Positions 17,104-64,000 are shown, counted from the stretch's first letter. The stretch is 64,000 bases of DNA from Psilocybe cubensis (GCA_017499595.2 CM039010.1:1550001-1614000); one strand, 5' to 3'. Translations and numbers: made by a program. Notes: generated by a model from the sequence alone, not told the origin.

Positions 17104-18956
17104 TCACTCTGAATATGGGTCCGCCTCCGATTCTTCTTCCATACGATCCCTTTCTTCTTCAACATACTTCTGCATCAAGCCGACTACCTTGCGCAGATTT
17201 TGACTAAATTTGGCCGATATCGGAACTACATCCAATAGTCGCCCGTCAGGCAGCGTCATAGACGTCGTAACATACTCTTCAAGAACCCTGAGTTTCTCTT
17301 TAGCCTGTTCAACAGCGGCTGGGTCCCCGTCACTAGCCAGGAGGTCTGCTTTATTGGCAAGCACAAGCCTAGCCTTCTCGCTCATTCCGGGCTGATACTT
17401 TTCCAGCTCGTCTCGAAGTACGGAAAGCTCGTCCCAGGGCTTTTCCATGGAGAAATCTACGACGTATACAAGCGCCAGTGATCGCTCCATAGAACGCAAG
17501 AACGCATGACCCAAACCGACATTTTCTGACGCGCGAGAAATGAGTCCAGGGTTATCCGCAATGGTGAACCGGAACGTCTCGAAGACGTCAAAGTGGTGGC
17601 CTGGTTTCAGCGGAGATGTTAAGTTGGCGGGGAGCTCCTCTGTGATCTGGTTTCGCGTAGGAGACATGGCGTAGTCGCCTCGCTCGATCTTTTCTTGTTC
17701 TTCGAGTTCCTCTTTCCATGTTTCCTCGTGCACTGTTTGCCCGGAGATGGAGCCTTCGAATGTGCCGTCTTCTGCTACGCGCACGATTCCAACGACGGGG
17801 TTCAGTGTCGTGAAGGCGTATGACGCGACTTCGCTCTTCGCCCGTCCGCCTGTGAGGGCTCGAAGTAATGTGCTTTTGCCGGCGTTTGGCATCCCAACGA
17901 GGCCGATGTCGGCTAGCAGTTTTAGCTCCAGGGAGAGTGTCACTCGCTCGCCTTCGATTCCTCGCGTTGCGAATTTGGGTGAACGGTTCTCGGCAGATAC
18001 GAAGTGAGGGTTTCCTAGCCCCCCAAGGCCGCCCGAAGCAACGAGATGACCTAGGTTTTCTCGATGTCGCGTGCCAAGTGGTGCATTGACAGGTTTTTCA
18101 AAAATTTCCTCTTTGTCGAGGTCGAGGTAGATCGGTTCTTCCATAGCTTTTCTTCTGCTTTCGTACCTCCGTACCCTCTCAGAATTGTAATATGCCTCCT
18201 CCGCCTCTAAGAACGAGTCTCGTTCGATATTCACATCGTGGTGTTCAGGATAATGCACCCATCGTTTATCCCGCATTTTTTCGCGTTTCTCAGAGGGAGA
18301 CAGGCCCTGCAACGACTCTTCCTCTGACTCCCAAGCGTCCTTCGCCCGTCGCGGGTCGTCCCAAGGAAGCTGTCTAACGACTGTCCCAACAGGCACTTTT
18401 ATCACGTACGGTGCCCCGGCTTTGCCATTCTGCCACGTCCCCTGCCCGTGAGCGCCGTTTTCACCTCTGACCTTCTTGGGCACGGTGCTTAGCGTTGTGA
18501 GAGTCGAAGTTGGGAGTATGTACACGTCTCCTCCGCGCCCGCCGTCCCCTCCGGAAGGTGGACCGAAAGGTTTGAACTTTTCTCTGTGGAACGCGGCGCA
18601 GCCAGAACCTCCCGTTCCTAACCTGGGATATCAATTGTGGATCCCGGCTTGTACACAATGTACTCGGGACGGCGCACCTCCTCTAACTGTCACTATGACA
18701 TTATCGAGAAATGATTGCCCCTATTGTAGTCAATTGTCAATGATGTGTCCATAGAGAATGGGATATGGCATTCTCTGACTCCTTGTCTCCGTTTCCAGTC
18801 TGTTTTGCGTCGTCTTCGAAAGGTCTCGAGGTCATCACTTGTGTACGCGGGTGTTTCAGGTTTTTCTTGACTTGATACGTGTCGATGACAGTATGAAAAT
18901 GGATTTTGCTTCTGATGGATACAAATAGACCGTAGAAGAGGAGGGAGACGGGACAT
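17104..18956 (-). CDS. MTG2: Mitochondrial Obg/CgtA-family GTPase (MTG2-like)
   Basis: Gly-rich Obg fold (GGSGCAAFHREKFKPFGPPSGGDGGRGGDVYI), LELKLLADIGLVGMPNAGKS (G1), YAFTTLNP (G2), DNPGL (G3), NKAD (G4), ISAK (G5); Arg-rich N-terminus resembling a mitochondrial presequence. Confidence 0.93.
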
Positions 18957-55025: not shown

Positions 55026-57479
55026 ATGTCGTCCATTCAGGAGGAAAGCGACAACCTTGTCCAGGCTTCACAGCAAGTCCAGGTATATCACGACCCACTG
55101 TCTTGTTGGACTTATTAATTTTACCGATTATCAAGCAGGAGCAGTCGAACAACAGGTCTCCTAAATCCGATCCTGATCTGCCCACTGGCAAGTTGTGGGA
55201 CGTTCAAGATCCTTTCAGATTTGCCCCACCTAAACCTGACGGAGATTCATGGGCTTTACTACTAGACCCATTGATAATGAAGGATAAAGTTCAATGCGAC
55301 GCTTGGAAAGACGAAGTACAATACTTGCTCATTTTTGTAAATGTCATGTGTGACGTTTATAAAGATACACTGACCCCATCTTGCTTAGGCTGGACTTTTC
55401 TCTGCGGTAATTACCGCTTTCATCGTCGAGTCGTACAAGAACCTACAGCCGGACCCCAATGACGCCATCGTTAGCCTTCTTTCTCAGATAGCTTCACAGA
55501 TGGATCGGTCTCTCAATGTGACTACCGTCAACCTGTCGCCTGCAAACTCTTTTGCGCCTACCCCATCTTCCATCCGGGTCAACGTGTTTTGGTTTATTAG
55601 TCTTGTTCTCAGCATGGGTACAGTAATCATAGGTATTGTCTCTTTACAGTGGCTAAGGGAACATCAATCTTACGAGTCGGACCTCTCACCACGGGAAAAA
55701 TATGCATTATTCAACATGCGAGCCAATGGATTAAAACGATGGCACGTTGACAAATTTTTAAACTCTCTGCCACTACTACTACAGGCAGCTCTTGTCCTCT
55801 TTCTAGGAGGAGTCATCGACTTTCTTCATGCCATTGGATACTGGGCCGTCACAATCCCTGTTGTTGTTGTGATTGCTTTCATCTTGCTATTTCTTGTTAC
55901 TACTACACTTCTGCCATGTCTTCAGGTACTATCCCTATACTTTTATTTTCCACCCAGGAATGGTAAAATCCCAAAACACTTTGACCCACCCAGTCAATGC
56001 CCGTACAAATCACCACAATCTCAAACTATACGACGGTTCTTCAGAAACACCATAAAATTATATGGCAAATTTACTTTGTGGCATCTTCCACGGTTCTTTC
56101 ACAGAATTAAACACTACTTGAAAAACCCTTTCTCAGGACCACCTGGCCCCTTTCAGCCTGGTTACTATTCCTTCGACCCTTTTACTTGCTACCTTGGGGA
56201 GGCCTCCCGATCGCATTGGTGGAGCCAGTTTGATCTAGCCTGGCTCAACATTCGTGACGCATATATGCGGCGCTCATTTGGTCAACAACTTGATTTCGGC
56301 GATACGCTTGGGCGGGATGATGACCAGACTTTTCCCATCTATGATATCGTAACGGGGTTACTTTCTCAAGTTGAAGAAAAATCGACAGAAATTCCTGCCT
56401 ATCACTGCTTCGATGAGGTGTCGCTAATGTACGATAACCAATGCTGGTATCGTCAAGATGCGTATCTTAATCGCCTTGTATCGAATGGCTTTCAACTCGA
56501 GAATAACGTTTGTTTGTCGGATTTTCTTTGTATGACCGGCTCCCTCTACCCCCTTCGAACGGCGTATACCAGCCTCCTTCGCCAACAAAATTTGTTTCTC
56601 TTTATTAGAGGCTGTAGGGGCTGGAGACGCGCAGCATTGCTTACCAAACATCTATTCGAACTGAATTTTCGGTTGATGGGATATTATCTCCGTGAGGAAA
56701 ATGGACTACGCATTGCGGAACTTGGTGAACAAAAAATTCCCGAGTGTTTTAAGGTTCAAGAAGGCTATACCTCTCTCTTCGATCCTAAAGAGGACCATAA
56801 AAGCAGTGCTGGTAAGTTTCTTATTGATTTGTATCCCAACAAGTACGTGGTTGATGGTTTGTCAGTTGTAGAACTCTCCCGGCAGTTTGGAAATATTACA
56901 CTGCTAATGTTACGCCAGCTAGAATCAAATATCAACACAAGTTCAGTGCACTCTGCATCATTAGTTCGAAGCTATGGGTTAGGGGATTATATGAACCTCG
57001 CAGAATTCCTCGAAACTCGGAGCTCGTTTGTTCTTATCGCGCAAAATGGGACATCCATACATCGGCCCTTAGAAAAAAGCGATGTCTTTGAATCAATTCG
57101 TACTCTACTCGAAAAACACTTAACCAGTAAAATATTGGCGATATCTACCTCCCAGTTATCGGACGAACACCATCCAAGCTTGCTTCTCTACTTGGCCGCA
57201 CTGTATTGTGACTCTCTCGACTCTTTTCGCCTGCGTCACATTCAGTCTCTGCTCTCCGCGGTTTGTAGATACAAGAAGCTTACAATAGACAAAGGTATAG
57301 TTAATTCGGATATTGAAGCAGCATTACATGTTCGTCGAGTTTGGTTTTGGTCTGAGGCTGGACATACCTTCTCAAAAGAGTGGTGGGACCATTTCATGAG
57401 TCGAGTTCTGGAAGCATCCATAGAATCAGCGGGTACCAGTAATGACAACCGAAAAGGGACATATACTCGGAATATGTAG
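55026..57479 (+). CDS. DUF6535-type membrane domain protein with variable C-terminus
   Basis: MSSIQEESD...|...CDAWKDEVQYLLIF|AGLFSAVITAFIVESYKNLQPDP...RVNVFWFISLVLS...QWLRE...LPLLLQAALVLFLGG...CPYKSPQS, the hallmark motifs of this expanded agaricomycete family. Confidence 0.8.
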
Positions 57480-58105
57480 GGTTGTCATACTAGTTGTTGC
57501 GATCAATAGTACTTTCAAAATTTATTAAGAAGAGAATGGCCCGATGAATTGAAGCCTCCTATTAACGCGTAACGCGTAATCATTCACGTGATGGGAAATT
57601 TATGGTTCAATCTCCGATTATAGCTGGCTCCTGTATTGTTTCCAAAATGTTTCCACCAACATTTCACCTGGTGTATTAGCGTCGATGCTCGAGGTTTAAA
57701 CATGCACGCTTTTTGGTCCGTTCCGGGAACACCTTTTGTTGGAATCCATAAACGGCGTCAGTTAAAATAACATTGCTCCACTCATTACACTTGAACAGGC
57801 TTTGCCAATCTGTCAATGCCTTCACACCATCGCCATACGCGTTTAAAGGTTCGCCACAATAGGTGGTGCAGCTTATGTCATATACTTTCAGTAAAAGAGG
57901 ATATGTCACTACCAACGCTGGTGGAGAGTACTTGCAAGCATCCTCGAAGCTGCATCGGGATGTCATCTGTGACGATTCACCAATGCACCGGGCCTTTGAG
58001 AGGGGTGACGTCACCTTGTCCTCCATTCATAAATATGCCAGCTGCTATTCGTAGTCACTCGAGTTATAAAACCTCGTAAATTTTGACGCATACCACATTC
58101 TTACG

Positions 58106-59511
58106 ATGACAATGATCGACAAAACAACTGTCGCAGACCTCGTCGCCAAGTATGGATCCTCTAGTGCAACCGCCTGGCTTGAATTTGAGCGGTACAAACT
58201 ATGGCAGCCCACAGAACCGGTTCTCGAATCATCGTTCACGCCAGTACAAGGATACATGGAGAAGGATCCATACATCTTCGCCTGGGGAAACCCTCTCGTG
58301 TCTGACCCGGCTGCCTTACCTTCGGTTGCGCGCCAGTTCGTCGAATTCTGCGAATCTCAAGGGAAGCGCCCAATATGGTCGTGCGTTGACCGAGACCTCG
58401 AGGAAATTTTAGGCGGTCCAGAATTCGAATGGAGCACGGTGTCATGTATATACGAGGATGTTGTCGACCCTGCCCACGTGCTAGAGCTAACGTCGCCCGA
58501 ATCGAAAGGAAAAGAAGGCCAAAAAGTGGTGAAGGATTTGAAGAAGAATTTATATAGGGCAGATAAGTATGACGTGAAGGTGCAGGAAATTTTATCCAAC
58601 GAGTGGACAGAGGCCGACAAGATTGCAGTGGAGAAAGGAATTGCCGAGTGGAAGGAAAATAAGAGCGGGGTCCAAATAGCGTCGACAACCCTTCAACCGT
58701 GGCTTGACTCGGTACATCGAAGATATTGGCTAGCAAAGAAGGACGGTGAGGTGAGTTGCTCTTACCCTTTGGACCCAAACTATTCGTATCGTACCTAACC
58801 GACGGCCCTTGCTATAGCCTGTCGGAATCCTCATTCTCACACCTATCCAAGCGTCGTCGTGGCAGATCAAGAATGCTGTTTCTTTTCCATCCGCGCCCAA
58901 AGGCACTTCAGAAGCACTCATATTCACTGCACTGAAGGATTTGCATGAAGAAGAAGAGAAAGCCCGAGCGTCCGGAGACAAGATACCCCATCCAGCCAAT
59001 GGAAACGTCACCGGAGAAGTCATCCAACCTGTTGGGAACGGTGCACCAGCAGCTGACTCTGCATCAGAAATTAGCAGCATCAGCGCCGACGCCCCTTCAG
59101 AAAGCGAGACCAATAGTCTTTCCACTCCTCACCTGGAGAATGGCTCAAACACTAACGTCGGACAAGGATCAGCACCCGCGCCCTCGAAGACGAATCATCG
59201 AGATGCAGATAGAGTGACTGTAACATTTGGTATCAGCGCATCGCCGGAGTTCCAGCCTATTCGGAATCTTGGGGGTTGGAAAGTGAAGGCGCTAGGAAAG
59301 ACATATAATAAAGTAGCTTCTGGCGCCAAATTGATTCAAAGAGGCGAGTTCCGAGTGAGTATTGCAACCTTTTCCGAGGTAAATTAACCTGAACTTACCG
59401 TATCCGCAGAGTAAATTCGACTCTGAGGCGGATCCCATGTATGTCTGCTATCCGGCGGATGGATTTGGCCTGGACGGGGTAAACGCCTTGCTGAAGGTGT
59501 TGAAGAAGTAA
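58106..59511 (+). CDS. Free-standing DUF2156 / aminoacyl-tRNA transferase domain protein (ErdS-transferase-like), copy 1
   Basis: Three exons: LVAKYGSSSATAW, WGNPLVSDP, PIWSC, WSTVSCIYEDVVDP, QPWLDSVHRRYW|, QIKNAVSFPSAPKGTSE, VTFGISA, RGEFR|SKFDSEADPMYVCYPADGFG. This motif order matches the DUF2156 domain of fungal ErdS as I recall it. Confidence 0.82.
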
Positions 59512-60621
59512 CTTGAGGGATTTGACTTTTATTAGACTCCATGGTAATCTTCATATCCTTCATTTGTCAATTAAATTGAGATACTCGTTTTGTTGCCTTG
59601 GTCTCCTGGACGAACTGCAACGTGTGAGACTCTTTGGTCATGATACATCCCAGATGCATCCATTCATGATCGCGTCGAACTAATTTCGGCCTTTTGCGGC
59701 CGTGCATTGATGCCGATTGATTAGGGTGATTACCGAGAACAGCCGAAGTGCCGACAAATGAACATTGAACAACTCAGAACACCTCCAAAGTCAATGAGTC
59801 CTAGGCGGCACTGTGTAACCCTTATGCGCACGGTTAAACGATGATCTGAACTGAGACTCTGTACATATTATACTTTTAAAGAGCTTTCTATTGGATAATT
59901 AAAGCTCCAATGCGCGTACGCCGTACACCGTCTCGGCGATCAACTTCGTATATGGGGCACCCAATCGACATGAATAATCATTGTTATCCCGACAGGCGTT
60001 GGCCATTCTCCATACAAGAGTGAATTTAAAGACATAATCACGATATCACGATATATGCTATAGTCGCATCTTTTCCATACAAATATACCAGTCGGTAAAC
60101 TGTCTTCTTTGTATAATGCAGCTGACTAGCTTATCAAAATATACAACGACTTCAATGTGAGCTTGTGTAACTTGGACGTTTTAAGATTCCTCGAGAACTC
60201 TGATATTGTAGAGATTAGAATGGGTGTGTGAGCCCTTGGCATGATTTCTGTGGCTCCTTTTTTCATCACAAGGGATCCATCAACATGAGACCGTCAGCGC
60301 TTCCGATTCATTCCATGCTTAATAGCCAAAAATAGGTAAACAACCACAGCGTACACGCCGGGCTGGAAAGATCCAAGTTCTTCACTAGGACGAAAAATAT
60401 CGCCGAGCATACACTTCTTGTGTGTTTCAGTTCGCTGGCGCAGTAGTATGTAGTAGTAGGCGCAGTATACTGCGTCGCATATGCCAATGTTCAAAAATAG
60501 CTTTAACGCTTATATACAAGTCAGCGGTGAAGGTATGAATCCTCAAAAACGCATCAACTAATCGTGCCATTTCACATTCCCTCAAAGCACTCTCATATAC
60601 TTTCCAGACTCCTTCTGATTC

Positions 60622-61945
60622 ATGAGGAACATTGAGCAGCCGTCCCTTTCAGATTTAATCGCGGAACACGGGCATTCCAGCTCGACAGATTGGCTGGACG
60701 CGCGGTATCAGCACTGGTATCTTCCTTACCGACCTTCTGGATCCAAATTTACCCCCGTCCAAGGGTATATGATTCAAGGATCGTATATTTTTGCGTGGGG
60801 AAATCCGATCGTCTCTTCCTCAGCTGTTTTTCCTTCCTTTATCGACCACTTCTCCGCGTTCGCCGATTCTCAAAGCAGAATTCTTGTCTGGCTTTGTGTA
60901 AATCAGGAGTTTCAAGATGTCCTTGGGAGTAAATTCGGCTGGAGCACTGTTTCGTGTATAAAAGAAGATCTTATCGATCCGACTCATGTTTTGCACATGA
61001 TGTCGAAGAAGGAATGCGGTCGCATTAAGAATCTTCGGAACAGCTTAAGCAAGGCGTACAAGTCAGGTCTAATGGTGGAAGAGGTCCCAAAAGAGTATTT
61101 GGTCGAGTCTAATCAACGGGTCTGCATCGACGAAGGAATAGCGAAGTGGAAAGAGAGTAAAAAAGGAATACAAATCGCTTCGACGACTGTGAATCCATGG
61201 CTAGATATAGAGCACCGAAGGTATTGGTTAGCAAGATTGGACTCCACGGTGTGTAGCCTCTTTGCTTCTCGGTCAATTCAACTACTGCGAGTCGCCTGCT
61301 GACGTCGTTCTCCAAGGTCGTCGGAATTCTTATTCTTACCCCGATACACCATGGTCACTGGCAAATTGTCAACGTTGTTCCGTTTAATTCTTCTCCGAAG
61401 GGGACTTCAGAGGCTCTCATACACGCCGTATTGAAGGCCATCGAAGCTGAGCAAGACACATTAGACGAATCGACCAGTTCACTCGTTAGTCGAATTTCTA
61501 GTGCATCAGTTCTAGTGCTAACCGTGATATTTCGAAGCATTCCGACAGTACTGGCGACTCCATCCCTTACCCAAATTACCAGATTTCGATAGGGGATGCA
61601 ACGTCGACACCAGGGCTGGTAAGCTTTGGTATCAGCGCTACTCAGGATGTAGTGCCTAGGCACAATCCATCCCCAAAGCTAGAAACACTAGTTAAAATAT
61701 ACAACAAGGTGGCATACCTAGGGGGACTATTTGGACGGAAGGAATTTCGAGTAAGCATTTTGCTACCACCTAAACTCCGCTTTTCGTCCCATTTTCATGT
61801 TTTTATTTTGCTAACCCACCGCTATTTTCAGAGTAAATTTGACCCGAAGTACAACATTATGTATGTTTGTTACCCACGCGACGCTTTCGACAAGGGTAGC
61901 AGGTTCTCGTTATTCGAAGACCTCATAAACGCTTTGAGAAAATAG
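60622..61945 (+). CDS. Free-standing DUF2156 protein, copy 2 (possible frameshift/pseudogene)
   Basis: Same motifs and the same two intron positions as copy 1 (WGNPIVS, WSTVSCIKED, PWLDIEHRRYW, PKGTSE, SFGISA, EFR|SKFDP..MYVCYP), but the reading frame changes between ~61485 and ~61620. Confidence 0.72.
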
Positions 61946-62414: not shown

Positions 62415-64000
62415 CTAGCAAGGGTATGCTCCTGAGATTGTGGAATGGGTATCAACGTCAACGGCAGTAGCATTGGACGACGAGGAAAAAAATTTGGTTG
62501 GATTACGACGACGCAACCGTCTCACAGGCCAACCTAGTCGTCTTAGGAAGCTTGTGTTGGGGGGATATAGGTCCGTACTCTGGAATGCGATGACGACCCA
62601 GACGGTCAACGCCGTAAGAGGTAATGTGAGGGCGGCGTATATGGCAAAGGTAGCGGTTGTTCCTGGGTTGATTTCGCGGACATTCATGCCAAAGATGCCC
62701 TGCTTGAAAATGTTATCGAGAGACGTCTGTAGTAATCACAAGCTGCTTACTGCGAGGAATGACGCTGGAAGAAAAAACATAGTCATATACGCAATTTGCT
62801 TCATCTGTTTGACCAATTAGCAATCGACTACTTGCAAGGGAGCCTATATGTCTAACTTACAGCTAGATTCGGTAGTGATTAATTGTATGATTCAATTCAC
62901 AGAGGGAATAAAACCTTACCGGCACTGTCGCGTATGGTGGCTTCCGTAATTAAGCGGGTGTAGCGCCTATCAACAAGTTCCAAGACATTTTGCAGGCGCC
63001 TTTCTTGCATATACAGTTCGGCTTCAAGGCGCTTGATCTCTACCAAGAGATTCGCACACTCCCGTGCCATGATAGCCTTGCTAAATTCACGTTCCTCTTC
63101 AGATTTACCGTCCATGGCAGGACTGGGCGTATCCCGGATGAAGATAACATGCTTAGCGTAGTCGTCGAGCAGGGATGTGTAGTGCAAGTGGTGCGCCCTT
63201 ATCACGTGAAGCTCATGAGTGAGAGGCATATCCTCCGTGGTTGTGATGACACGAGATTCCTGAGGTATAATGAGAAGGGCTACATCACCATTGCATGACT
63301 TACCAAGGTGCAGATGTGATCGTAGAGATTTTCCAGAGCTTCATCCCAACCATACATTGCATGCCATACAAAAGCTAATAGGACAAAGGTAGAATCTGCA
63401 GATCTCTGGAATATACTTTGCCAGTAAACGTTCTGACCTAGAAGGAGGAACAGAGTCAGGGAACCAATTAAAAAAAAACGAAGTCCAGGTGGTCCACCAA
63501 CCAGCATAACGAATTCGCTCGTGGAGAAATGCTGCCGACGTCGTCGGAAGATTCAACGTAGGATGAAATGATAAGATGGTACTCCCGTTGATGTTTCGGA
63601 TAAGGTGAACAGCGAGTAGGTCTAGCACTAGCAGCCTGTTGTCTGTCATATTTATCGGTTGTCAGATGCCTGTCATATAACGTTTTTCTTGGCTTTCTTA
63701 CTGGAGTGAAGCATTAATGGCGAATGAGGATCAATTCTTTGAGTACCTGAGATATCACAATCAGGAAAAATTGAAGAGAGAAGAAGACAGGAGCAGGGCA
63801 TACCAAGCAAAGTCCCCGATGGCCTGAGAGTATCGGTCGATTTCCCGAACGTCACTGTGTCCTGATTCGACATGGATCGCAAGAAGGTCAAGGTGATGGT
63901 GATATCTAGGCCGTGAGAGGATGAGAAGCTATAGATTCCTCCTTTCTGGATAGGATGGTGAATGCACAAGGGAGAAGATCGACTCACGGTCTCCAATTCC
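62415..64000 (-). CDS. CorA-like Mg2+ transporter-domain protein, 3' part (runs off the window)
   Basis: ATIRDSA|..MKQIAYMTMFFLPASFLA|GIFGMNV (GMN signature)...YAALTLPLTALTVWVVI: two C-terminal TM helices after a coiled region. Confidence 0.8.

What the first reader, a model, noticed from the sequence alone, without database searches (positions are those of the whole stretch)
58106..61945. Tandem free-standing ErdS-like DUF2156 aminoacyl-tRNA transferases with no synthetase or membrane anchor
Seen: two adjacent same-strand paralogs, each consisting only of a DUF2156-type domain, with shared intron positions, no N-terminal AspRS and no obvious TM helix. Known: fungal DUF2156 enzymes are ErdS (AspRS-DUF2156 fusion making ergosteryl-aspartate) and ErgS (stand-alone, membrane-anchored, Gly-tRNA-dependent, described mainly in ascomycetes). 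Inference: by recalled motif order these resemble the ErdS transferase module but stand alone in a basidiomycete. They may be an uncharacterised class that takes a cytosolic aa-tRNA and aminoacylates a sterol, another lipid or a metabolite.
Basis: partly seen in the sequence, partly recalled or inferred. Interest (0 to 1): 0.82.

Follow-up and report, generated by a model that had tools for sequence, protein, structure and literature searches.

The report
Stand-alone ErdS-like transferase gene pair
Two neighbouring genes in the mushroom Psilocybe cubensis encode stand-alone copies of the enzyme module that other fungi use to move amino acids from charged tRNAs onto ergosterol; they belong to an uncharacterised branch found across basidiomycetes, whose product is still unknown.

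Summary
Gene A (58106-59511, 3 exons, 427 aa) is letter for letter the database protein JR316_0013245 of Psilocybe cubensis. A transcript-like contig lacks exactly its two introns. Gene B (60622-61945, 4 exons, 373 aa by my model) is 44% identical and shares two intron positions. Neither has a synthetase domain or a hydrophobic helix.

Gene A matches the transferase domain of the solved A. fumigatus ErdS at E 8e-35 and folds as a double GNAT. In a tree, both genes sit in a fully supported clade of free-standing basidiomycete proteins, separate from all ErdS transferase domains. A recent truncation of ErdS is rejected.

The clade keeps most tRNA-pocket and sterol-pocket residues. It replaces the proposed ErdS general-base His795 with Ala in 47 of 52 members, and none has His.

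Most likely these are soluble aa-tRNA-dependent sterol aminoacyl transferases that rely on a separate synthetase. The amino acid is unknown. Gene B is fast-evolving and has no expression evidence. I could not obtain ErgS sequences, so that comparison is indirect. I rate it a new variant of a known kind.

The parts
58028..58105 (+). 5' leader of gene A, colinear with the genome in the transcript-like contig
   Evidence: The X1 contig starts at 58028 with no joint or loose end. A contig cannot define the true transcript start.
58106..58750 (+). Gene A exon 1 (residues 1-215): GNAT I, the basic helix and the first part of GNAT II
   Evidence: Aligns with ErdS residues 631-860 together with the start of exon 2.
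58679..58681 (+). Gene A codon GCG = Ala192, at the position of the proposed ErdS general base His795
   Evidence: Ungapped phmmer alignment to ErdS; column table; sequence.
58751..58817 (+). Gene A intron 1, 67 nt, GTGAGT..TAG, phase 0
   Evidence: Skipped in the X1 contig.
58818..59354 (+). Gene A exon 2 (residues 216-394)
58947..59210 (+). Low-complexity insert rich in S/A/E/G/P/N (about residues 259-346) inside GNAT II, predicted disordered
   Evidence: Not aligned to ErdS. pLDDT is below 50 at residues 292-333. Insert length is 89 in A and 38 in B; FS clade 4/15.5/120 (min/median/max); ErdS 1/4/4.
59355..59409 (+). Gene A intron 2, 55 nt, GTGAGT..CAG, phase 0, inside EFR|SKF
   Evidence: Skipped in the X1 contig.
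59410..59511 (+). Gene A exon 3 (residues 395-427 plus stop)
60622..61248 (+). Gene B exon 1 (209 aa)
   Evidence: PF09924 E 0.0034, below threshold.
61177..61179 (+). Gene B codon GCT = Ala, at the His795 position
61249..61316 (+). Gene B intron 1, 68 nt, GTGTGT..AAG, at the same position and phase as gene A intron 1
   Evidence: Predicted only.
61317..61484 (+). Gene B exon 2 (56 aa)
61485..61537 (+). Gene B-specific intron, 53 nt, GTTAGT..AAG, in the insert region. If it were retained, the frame would stop at 61592 before the conserved C-terminal part.
   Evidence: Predicted only.
61538..61750 (+). Gene B exon 3 (71 aa)
61751..61831 (+). Gene B intron 3, 81 nt, GTAAGC..CAG, at the same position and phase as gene A intron 2 (EFR|SKF)
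   Evidence: Predicted only.
61832..61945 (+). Gene B exon 4 (37 aa plus stop)

Best explanation
Gene A encodes a soluble, free-standing aminoacyl-tRNA transferase of the ErdS type: two GNAT domains joined by a basic helix. It belongs to an old, basidiomycete-wide paralogous clade, here called the FS clade, and is not a truncated ErdS. Having no synthetase of its own, it must take an aminoacyl-tRNA made by a separate cytosolic synthetase. It binds the acceptor end through the basic helix and the conserved CCA pocket. It most likely transfers the amino acid to the 3-beta-hydroxyl of ergosterol or a related sterol held in the conserved pocket at the GNAT I/II interface, giving an ergosteryl-amino acid. 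Aspartate is the leading single candidate but is not established. The clade has swapped the proposed ErdS general base (His795) for alanine, so activation of the acceptor, and possibly the acceptor itself, differs from ErdS. Gene B is a fast-evolving neighbouring paralog. It keeps the core pocket residues and an intact spliced frame, so it is probably still coding, but its activity and expression are open. Shown here: gene structures, splicing of A, homology, fold, clade membership and the residue pattern. Inferred: tRNA dependence, sterol as acceptor, and the amino acid.
For: Homology: P0001 matches the transferase domain of the solved A. fumigatus ErdS (9w9e/f/g) at E 8e-35. The match runs end to end except for the insert: query 10-255 to ErdS 631-860, and query 347-423 to ErdS 867-943. 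No other PDB sequence scored below E 1.

Fold: the AlphaFold2 model has pLDDT 86.5 and pTM 0.85. Its best Foldseek matches are the DUF2156 domains of Lys-/Ala-PG synthases and MprF (5vrv E 5.5e-14, target TM 0.77; 4v34; 4v36), followed by FemX and Sbb17.

Basic helix: net charge is +4 in both A and B at the alpha(+) position. The FS median is 3.5 and the ErdS median is 4.

Residues that PMC13219428 reports as needed for ErdS activity or lining its pockets (sections 10, 11 and 13 read) are largely kept in 52 FS-clade rows. W785 52/52, G791 52/52, Q793 47/52, R789 as R31/K21, F913 48/52, R914 51/52, K916 49/52. Sterol pocket: Y637 44/52, T643 46/52, W645 52/52, R649 51/52, C728 51/52, E731 50/52, W802 47/52, K838 47/52, Q836 38/52. 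Gene A matches all 79 columns that are at least 90% conserved in the clade; B matches 68 of 79.

Precedent for working in trans: the isolated ErdS DUF2156 domain uses Asp-tRNA made by a separate AspRS (PMC7334510, passages).

Expression: a spliced transcript-like contig covers gene A.

Clade: it has 100/100 support in a careful tree of 54 rows by 348 columns, and its internal order follows taxonomy: Microbotryomycetes, Tulasnella, Russulales, Boletales, Agaricales.
Against: His795, proposed as the general base, is His in 29 of 30 ErdS-clade rows. It is Ala in 47 of 52 FS-clade rows (D 3, K 1, E 1, never His), and Ala in both A and B. The H795A mutant of ErdS had strongly reduced activity (PMC13219428 section 10). 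S644, whose Ala mutant had the strongest sterol-pocket effect after Q836R, is Ala in 43 of 52 rows. K790 is not conserved. Eighteen columns are conserved differently in the two clades. So the acceptor or the mechanism may differ, or the proteins may be poor catalysts. No biochemical datum exists for any clade member in the papers I found. Amino-acid specificity cannot be read from sequence, as the authors of PMC8913301 say themselves (section 4). Pfam support for A is only just above threshold, 28.4 against 27.5 bits. I could not compare with ErgS sequences. Gene B has no RNA cover, no database protein of 367 aa or more that matches it (best 48%), and it has lost clade-invariant G414 and W369.
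Confidence: 0.55

Rival explanations
1. The FS clade is the basidiomycete counterpart of ErgS: a free-standing transferase that uses Gly-tRNA to make ergosteryl-glycine.
For: The architecture is the same, a free-standing DUF2156. An Atlas cluster of 437-aa PF09924 proteins, mostly Ascomycota, is the second-nearest by language-model features, at 0.94 against 0.95 for the basidiomycete cluster. PMC8913301 places one basidiomycete (Trichosporon oleaginosus) protein in ErgS.
Against: PMC8913301 gives about 20% identity between ErgS and the ErdS transferase domain, and says ErgS 'seem absent in Basidiomycota'. Gene A is 27-34.5% identical to 27 ErdS domains, median 31%, and reaches ErdS at E 1e-42 to 1e-23 by phmmer. 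Of 30 representatives whose names I looked up, none was named as an ascomycete free-standing protein. Some had no name. There was no direct test.
Confidence: 0.12
2. The enzymes are active aa-tRNA transferases but act on another acceptor: a non-sterol lipid, an amine-bearing metabolite or a peptide. The loss of the general base reflects a nucleophile that needs no deprotonation, as in FemX-type and Sbb17-type enzymes.
For: His795 to Ala is clade-wide. Eighteen columns discriminate the clades, including the block at P0001 44-48 and G178, S193 and S246. Fold relatives include FemX and the aminoacyl-tRNA-dependent peptide synthases Sbb17/Sba18. PMC13219428 contrasts the amine nucleophile of FemX with the need to activate ergosterol (section 13).
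Against: The residues lining the predicted sterol pocket are kept as well as, or better than, in ErdS itself: R649 51/52 against 16/30, C728 51/52 against 11/30, W802 47/52 against 15/30. I recognised no biosynthetic cluster around the genes. The upstream flank is a DUF6535 gene and the downstream ORFs gave no Pfam hit.
Confidence: 0.2
3. The proteins no longer catalyse transfer, because the general base is lost. They act as sterol-binding or tRNA-binding proteins, or as regulators.
For: H795A cripples ErdS. The second paralog group inside the clade (for example Galerina 66474) has even lost the positive helix, with net charge -2.
Against: The oxyanion Arg (R914, 51/52), K916, W785, G791 and Q793 are all retained over a span from Microbotryomycetes to Agaricales. 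That pattern is what purifying selection on a working active site would give. The His role is itself a proposal from docking, not a demonstrated mechanism.
Confidence: 0.08
4. The genes are truncated or mis-modelled ErdS genes: the AspRS exons were missed, or the synthetase domain was lost recently from an agaricomycete ErdS.
For: PMC7334510 says the 23% 'standalone' DUF2156 hits 'often' were truncated ErdS forms. Some clade members are named 'aspartyl-tRNA synthetase' in databases: P0040, P0079, P0081.
Against: The window holds no AspRS-like sequence, best E 1.1. The upstream gene is a DUF6535 protein. The spliced contig begins 78 nt upstream of the ATG and joins no other exon. None of the 108 relatives of 378 aa or more carries PF00152. 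P0040 and P0079 have only PF09924. Forcing the agaricomycete free-standing rows and the agaricomycete ErdS rows into one clade costs 120 log-likelihood units, p-AU 6e-123. The group was named after seeing the tree.
Confidence: 0.02
5. Gene B alone is a decaying duplicate, a pseudogene or one in the making.
For: Its end branch is 1.45 against a median of 0.40. 11 of 79 clade-conserved positions are changed, including G414D, W369P and K233V. There is no self-match among database proteins of 367 aa or more.
Against: It has 373 codons open across four exons with canonical splice sites. It keeps W785, G791, Q793, F913, R914 and K916 and a +4 helix. At 44% identity to A, a neutrally drifting copy would be expected to carry stops or frameshifts; this last point is inference.
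Confidence: 0.25

Closest known systems
ErdS (ergosteryl-3beta-O-L-aspartate synthase), transferase (ATT/DUF2156) domain; A. fumigatus structures 9w9e/9w9f/9w9g
   Same: Clear homology over the whole domain, E 8e-35. Same double-GNAT fold with a basic helix. Most CCA-pocket and sterol-pocket residues are shared, including R914, K916, W785, G791, Q793, W645, E731 and K838.
   Different: No AspRS domain and no N-terminal clamp helix. Separate clade: FS 100/100, ErdS 98/92. His795 is replaced by Ala, K750 by Asn in 50/52 rows, and N642 by Ala/Ser. Eighteen columns discriminate the clades. A variable disordered insert lies in GNAT II. I recognised no hydrolase gene next door.
ErgS (ergosteryl-3beta-O-glycine synthase), the ascomycete free-standing DUF2156
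   Same: Free-standing architecture that depends on a separate synthetase (PMC8913301).
   Different: ErgS is reported as about 20% identical to the ErdS domain and as essentially confined to Ascomycota. Gene A is at a median of 31% identity and is basidiomycete. I could not make a direct alignment or tree.
Bacterial MprF / aminoacyl-phosphatidylglycerol synthases (C-terminal DUF2156 domain)
   Same: Best structural matches in the Foldseek library, target TM 0.73-0.79. Same Pfam family.
   Different: No membrane flippase domain and no hydrophobic helix. Sequence identity is only 11-14% in the structural alignments. No MprF chain was reached by phmmer at E up to 10.
Free-standing DUF2156 proteins of Chlamydiota (P0251 Chlamydia sp. 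32-24; P0264 'Candidatus Rubidus massiliensis')
   Same: About 342 aa, free-standing, and the nearest bacterial sequences found: E 6e-12, 26-28% identity. An Atlas cluster of 52 members is a near feature neighbour.
   Different: Long branch of 1.7 to all fungal sequences. Tyr at the His795 position and Trp at R914. Function unknown.

Membership tests
DUF2156 / LPG_synthase_C (PF09924) aa-tRNA transferase superfamily | Pfam PF09924 match above the gathering score | tested here: met
   Gene A whole protein scores 28.4 bits against 27.5, E 1.1e-6. Gene B could only be scanned exon by exon; exon 1 scores 16.9 bits, E 0.0034, below threshold.
DUF2156 / LPG_synthase_C (PF09924) aa-tRNA transferase superfamily | Two GNAT folds joined by a positively charged helix | tested here: met
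   The gene A model has pLDDT 86.5. Top fold matches are DUF2156 domains. The helix at 139-154 has net charge +4 in A and +4 in the aligned stretch of B.
DUF2156 / LPG_synthase_C (PF09924) aa-tRNA transferase superfamily | aa-tRNA-dependent transfer of an amino acid | not testable with these tools
   Needs a biochemical assay.
ErdS | N-terminal AspRS domain fused to the transferase domain | tested here: not met
   PF09924 is the only family found. No AspRS-like coding in the window, best E 1.1. The spliced contig has no upstream exon.
ErdS | Transferase domain falls inside the ErdS clade | tested here: not met
   Separate clades, FS 100/100 and ErdS 98/92. A joint agaricomycete clade is rejected, p-AU 6e-123.
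ErdS | Proposed catalytic pair: His795 (general base) and Arg914 (oxyanion) | tested here: not met
   Arg is kept, but His is replaced by Ala in A, in B and in 47 of 52 clade rows. His is present in 29 of 30 ErdS rows.
ErdS | CCA-pocket residues W785, R789, G791, Q793, F913, K916 | tested here: met
   All are present in A and B, with R789 as Lys.
ErdS | Divergently transcribed erdH hydrolase gene next door | tested here: inconclusive
   The upstream flank is a DUF6535 gene and the downstream ORFs gave no Pfam hit. I had no ErdH sequence to search with.
ErdS | Makes ergosteryl-aspartate | not testable with these tools
   Needs a lipid assay.
ErgS | Free-standing DUF2156 without synthetase or flippase | tested here: met
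ErgS | Placement in the fDUF/ErgS clade of PMC8913301 Fig. 1C | not tested
   No tool gave me an ErgS sequence. The indirect evidence: gene A's identity to ErdS domains (median 31%) is higher than the about 20% reported for ErgS.
ErgS | Gly-tRNA-dependent synthesis of ergosteryl-glycine | not testable with these tools
   Needs an assay.
MprF / aaPGS | N-terminal multi-helix membrane (flippase) domain | tested here: not met
   0 hydrophobic 19-residue windows at or above 1.6 in A and in B. The proteins start at the domain boundary.

The most novel reading that the evidence does not exclude
The FS clade is a third functional class of fungal aminoacyl-tRNA transferases, as old as Basidiomycota. 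It would have a product that is neither ergosteryl-aspartate nor ergosteryl-glycine: either a different amino acid on ergosterol or a different acceptor. It would also use a His-independent way of activating the acceptor. Mushrooms such as Psilocybe would then carry an undescribed aminoacylated lipid or metabolite, and gene B could be a lineage-specific specificity variant.
Probability: 0.4. Interest if true: 0.75.

Novelty: new variant of a known kind. Interest (0 to 1): 0.56.

Why it matters
Only two fungal sterol-aminoacylating enzymes are characterised. One is ErdS, fused to its own AspRS. The other is ErgS, free-standing and reported as ascomycete-only. The authors of PMC8913301 list as open the origin of the fusion, the origin of amino-acid and sterol specificity, and the possible existence of further 'cryptic' transferases in Dikarya.

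The clade found here is widespread: 108 relatives of 378 aa or more alone, from Microbotryomycetes to Agaricales. It is free-standing. It is sister-like to all ErdS transferase domains rather than nested in them. It systematically lacks the residue proposed as the ErdS catalytic base.

That gives three direct tests. The first is of the proposed mechanism: does an Ala-containing natural enzyme work? The second is whether the fusion or the free-standing state came first. The third is how diverse steryl-amino acids are in mushrooms.

It also bears on one published observation. An Erg-Asp-like TLC band was seen in Schizophyllum commune (PMC7334510). For that species my searches found three free-standing clade proteins and no fused ErdS among 99 hits.

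Tried and rejected
Whole-genome search for a fused ErdS in this genome: not possible, because no genome is held. As a substitute I searched the protein collection with the transferase region of Laetiporus ErdS. Of the 99 hits, 98 carry PF00152 plus PF09924. They come mostly from Polyporales, Gloeophyllales, Phallomycetidae, Jaapia, Cantharellus, Malassezia and Ascomycota. Among Agaricales only three Mycena species and Cristinia sonorae appear, and none is from Psilocybe, Galerina, Coprinopsis or Schizophyllum. The search is word-based and capped, so this is weak evidence of absence.

RNA evidence: no listed holder is on record as RNA. Run X1 nevertheless gave the spliced gene A contig. Gene B had no cover in X1 or X5, which says nothing about its expression.

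ErgS sequences: I could not obtain any. Of the 150 representatives listed, I looked up the names of 30. None was named as an ascomycete free-standing protein, and several have no name.

Foldseek library: it ends in April 2026 and listed no ErdS entry, so the fold search could only show the MprF-type relatives.

Gene B full-length tests: a Pfam scan or a fold prediction was not possible, because a spliced product cannot be handed to those tools. Only its exons were scanned.

Search with gene B exon 1 for longer proteins: 19 hits, best 48% identity, no self-match. Gene B is therefore either unannotated or annotated at under 367 aa.

Earlier scan notes: nothing for this genome; four bacterial DUF2156 notes, which were not relevant.

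Amino-acid specificity: the read sections of PMC13219428 name no Asp-recognising residues, so no prediction was possible.

One search was a script error of mine, repeated correctly.

Supplementary files, and Fig. 6A of PMC7334510 and Fig. 1C/7A of PMC8913301, could not be seen. They may show whether the authors already placed these basidiomycete proteins, and how they scored S. commune.
Full report
**What is there**

The stretch 58106-61945 holds two same-strand genes.

- Gene A: CDS 58106..58750, 58818..59354, 59410..59511, 427 aa. It is identical to the database protein P0001, 'hypothetical protein JR316_0013245 [Psilocybe cubensis]'.
- Gene B: by my model, CDS 60622..61248, 61317..61484, 61538..61750, 61832..61945, 373 aa.
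- All five introns have GT..AG ends.
- The first exons are 46% identical, E 9e-68. The full proteins are 44.1% identical, 160 of 363 aligned positions.
- Two intron positions, both phase 0, are shared: after ..KKDGE / ..RLDST, and inside EFR|SKF. Gene B has an extra 53-nt intron in the variable insert. Without that intron its frame would end before the conserved C-terminal part.

A contig of run X1 covers 58028-59479 and lacks exactly the two gene A introns (skips of 67 and 55 nt, GT..AG). It has no joint to any other exon and no loose end. The DNA-like run X2 is colinear with the genome. The tool only guesses that X1 is RNA, and a contig cannot define a transcript start. Gene B has no such cover, which is no evidence either way.

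**Stand-alone and soluble**

- The whole gene A protein has one Pfam family, PF09924 (28.4 bits against a cut-off of 27.5, E 1.1e-6). Exon by exon the matches fall below threshold.
- tblastn of the synthetase parts of two ErdS proteins against the 64-kb window gave nothing better than E 1.1. The window holds only these two transferase copies.
- The upstream gene (55389-57479) is a DUF6535 protein. The downstream ORFs gave no Pfam hit.
- No 19-residue window reaches Kyte-Doolittle 1.6 in A or B.

**What it resembles**

P0001 matches the A. fumigatus ErdS structures 9w9e/9w9f/9w9g at E 8e-35 over the whole transferase domain. Query 10-255 aligns to ErdS 631-860 and query 347-423 to 867-943. Residues 256-346 are left unaligned as an insert. 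No other PDB sequence scored below E 1.

The AlphaFold2 model, built from a 54-row alignment, has pLDDT 86.5 and pTM 0.85, with a disordered stretch at 292-333. Foldseek against a PDB copy that ends in April 2026, and listed no ErdS entry, returns in order:

- the DUF2156 domains of Lys-/Ala-PG synthases and MprF (5vrv E 5.5e-14, target TM 0.77; 4v34; 4v36; 7duw);
- the free-standing 2hqy;
- FemX and the tRNA-dependent peptide synthases Sbb17/Sba18.

The helix at 139-154 carries net charge +4. Gene B's aligned stretch also carries +4.

**Family and distribution**

A word-based search for longer relatives of gene A exon 1 gave 108 proteins of 378-901 aa.

- By name, nearly all are from Agaricales, Russulales, Boletales and Amylocorticiales.
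- 93 of 108 (my count) carry a precomputed PF09924. None carries the AspRS family PF00152.
- Two are over 800 aa. P0025 carries 2-hydroxyacid dehydrogenase domains. P0032 has no second family.

An exhaustive phmmer search of 1.84 billion representatives found only 371 proteins at E up to 1e-3, of which 59 are at E up to 1e-30.

I looked up names for 30 of the 150 listed representatives.

- Free-standing relatives: Pseudohyphozyma, Rhodotorula, Phenoliferia and another Microbotryomycete, Jaminaea (Ustilaginomycotina), Tulasnella, Phellopilus, and two Chlamydiota.
- Fused ErdS proteins: Laetiporus, Magnaporthiopsis, Acaromyces, Tilletia, Filobasidium and a Dothideomycete.

A search with the Laetiporus ErdS transferase region gave 99 hits, 98 of them with PF00152 plus PF09924. 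Among Agaricales only three Mycena species and Cristinia sonorae appear. None is from Psilocybe, Galerina, Coprinopsis or Schizophyllum. Both searches are word-limited, so absences are weak evidence.

**Tree**

From these hits I chose 88 rows:

- 48 agaricomycete free-standing proteins out of the 108;
- 10 other free-standing proteins;
- 27 fused ErdS, cut to the transferase domain by phmmer envelopes;
- 2 Chlamydiota as outgroup;
- gene B.

I left out fragments under about 330 aa and near-duplicates.

A quick tree of the 88 rows and a careful tree of 54 of them (348 columns, LG+C20 PMSF) agree.

- All fused ErdS domains form one clade, 18 rows, 98/92.
- A clade of 32 free-standing rows has 100/100 support. 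It contains four Microbotryomycetes, Tulasnella, Russulales, Boletales, Agaricales and both window genes. I call it the FS clade.
- Its internal order follows taxonomy, as vertical descent from an early basidiomycete would give.
- Jaminaea and Phellopilus are free-standing but lie outside the FS clade, on long branches with weak placement.
- Holding the agaricomycete free-standing rows together with the agaricomycete ErdS rows costs 120 log-likelihood units, p-AU 6e-123. I named that group after seeing the tree.
- The root rests on a long chlamydial branch (1.7), so I do not claim which state is ancestral.
- Gene A groups with Galerina 139295, Flammula and Cyclocybe 'A' (93/99).
- Gene B has an end branch of 1.45 against a median of 0.40 and is unresolved within Agaricales. 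Its best database relatives are A-type proteins at 48% or less.

**Active site**

I read sections 10, 11 and 13 of PMC13219428, the 2026 ErdS structure paper. I mapped its residues onto the alignment through the ungapped phmmer alignment. The rows compared were 30 ErdS-clade rows (27 fused proteins plus 3 metagenome fragments that fell in that clade) and 52 FS-clade rows, window genes excluded.

| ErdS residue | ErdS-clade rows (n = 30) | FS-clade rows (n = 52) |
|---|---|---|
| His795, proposed general base | His 29 | Ala 47, Asp 3, Lys 1, Glu 1, never His |
| Arg914, oxyanion | 30 | 51 |
| K916 | 30 | 49 |
| W785 | 30 | 52 |
| G791 | 27 | 52 |
| Q793 | 30 | 47 |
| F913 | 28 | 48 |
| W645, sterol pocket | 27 | 52 |
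| R649, sterol pocket | 16 | 51 |
| C728, sterol pocket | 11 | 51 |
| E731, sterol pocket | 27 | 50 |
| W802, sterol pocket | 15 | 47 |
| K838, sterol pocket | 30 | 47 |

- Genes A and B both have Ala at the His795 position.
- Jaminaea and Phellopilus keep His there.
- S644 is Ala in 43 of 52 FS rows, and K750 is Asn in 50 of 52.
- Eighteen columns are conserved in both clades but with different residues.
- Gene A matches all 79 columns that are at least 90% conserved in the clade. Gene B matches 68 of 79, losing among others K233 (= K838), W369 and G414.
- The GNAT II insert is 89 residues in A and 38 in B. Across the FS clade it is 4/15.5/120 (min/median/max), against 1/4/4 in ErdS.

**How it most likely works**

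Without a synthetase, the enzyme must capture an aa-tRNA made elsewhere. The isolated ErdS DUF2156 domain does this with Asp-tRNA supplied in trans (PMC7334510, passages). ErgS does it with Gly-tRNA (PMC8913301, abstract and sections read).

The kept CCA pocket, basic helix and oxyanion Arg argue for the same transfer chemistry. The kept pocket at the GNAT I/II interface argues for a sterol acceptor. The clade-wide His-to-Ala change argues that activation of the acceptor, or the acceptor itself, differs.

The amino acid cannot be predicted; the ErgS authors say so for the whole family. Aspartate is the leading single guess for two reasons. The domain is closest to ErdS. And PMC7334510 reports an Erg-Asp-like TLC band in Schizophyllum commune (section 10), a species for which I found three FS-clade proteins and no fused ErdS. 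I could not see that paper's figure or supplement, so this link is an inference.

**Comparison and novelty**

The proteins work like ErdS/ErgS-type enzymes but fail the membership tests for ErdS: no AspRS domain, outside the clade, no His795.

For ErgS the decisive test, clade placement, could not be run. The indirect data are against membership. ErgS is reported as about 20% identical to the ErdS domain and as absent from Basidiomycota apart from one Trichosporon species. Gene A is at a median of 31% identity.

Five searches of the paper library found only the three primary papers and one review on this topic. In what I read of the three primary papers (abstracts, the named sections and the passages found), the basidiomycete free-standing clade is not described. 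PMC7334510 mentions 'standalone' DUF2156 hits (23%) as 'often' truncated ErdS. PMC8913301 says further cryptic transferases may exist in Dikarya.

I therefore rate this a new variant of a known kind: a real, conserved, expressed but uncharacterised third branch of fungal aa-tRNA transferases. Gene B is a divergent local copy of uncertain status.

Noticed in passing
not in the window; proteins P0061, P0036, P0072, P0103, P0113: A second paralog group sits inside the FS clade (Galerina 66474, Cyclocybe B, Flammula 1659701, Agrocybe 5133, Pholiota 795507; 100/99). It carries a Cys/His-rich N-terminal extension of 37-72 residues. In Galerina 66474 the helix has net charge -2 instead of about +4, and Lys or Glu stands at the His795/Q793 positions. 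P0002 and P0061 of Galerina lie on the same 1.38-Mb contig. P. cubensis shows no member of this group in the window.
   Followed up: partly
proteins P0251, P0264: The nearest bacterial relatives of the fungal ErdS/FS domains found by exhaustive phmmer are 342-aa free-standing proteins of Chlamydiota (Chlamydia sp. 32-24 and 'Candidatus Rubidus massiliensis', the latter named 'lysyl-tRNA synthetase'). They score E 6e-12 at 26-28% identity. An Atlas cluster of 52 mostly chlamydial members is a near neighbour. This could bear on the bacterial origin of the fungal enzymes.
   Followed up: partly
proteins P0040, P0079, P0081: FS-clade proteins of 390-461 aa are named 'aspartyl-tRNA synthetase' or 'aspartate-tRNA ligase' in public records (Lyophyllum shimeji, Moniliophthora roreri). 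P0040 and P0079 have only PF09924. These names are probably transferred from ErdS and are misleading.
   Followed up: partly
proteins P0320, P0326, P0335, P0287: Among Agaricales, a fused ErdS was seen only in three Mycena species and Cristinia sonorae. Mycena ErdS sits on a long branch (1.04) at the base of the agaricomycete ErdS group. Fused ErdS and FS-clade proteins appeared in largely non-overlapping sets of orders in the two capped searches.
   Followed up: partly
proteins P0025, P0032: Two relatives are over 800 aa. P0025 (Coprinellus, 901 aa) joins the transferase to a D-2-hydroxyacid dehydrogenase. P0032 (Pleurotus djamor, 858 aa) has a 550-residue N-terminal part with no family. These are probably merged gene models, but I did not check.
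   Followed up: no
window 55389-57479 (+): A single 696-codon open frame directly upstream of gene A encodes a DUF6535 protein (PF20153, E 4e-46).
   Followed up: no
window 62415-63340 (-): Two open frames on the minus strand just downstream of gene B gave no Pfam hit at E up to 0.01. By eye, one contains a GMN-like motif followed by hydrophobic stretches, reminiscent of CorA-type transporters. That resemblance is recalled, not tested.
   Followed up: no
window 17104-18630 (-): An open frame with GTP1/OBG and MMR_HSR1 domains, an Obg-type GTPase.
   Followed up: no
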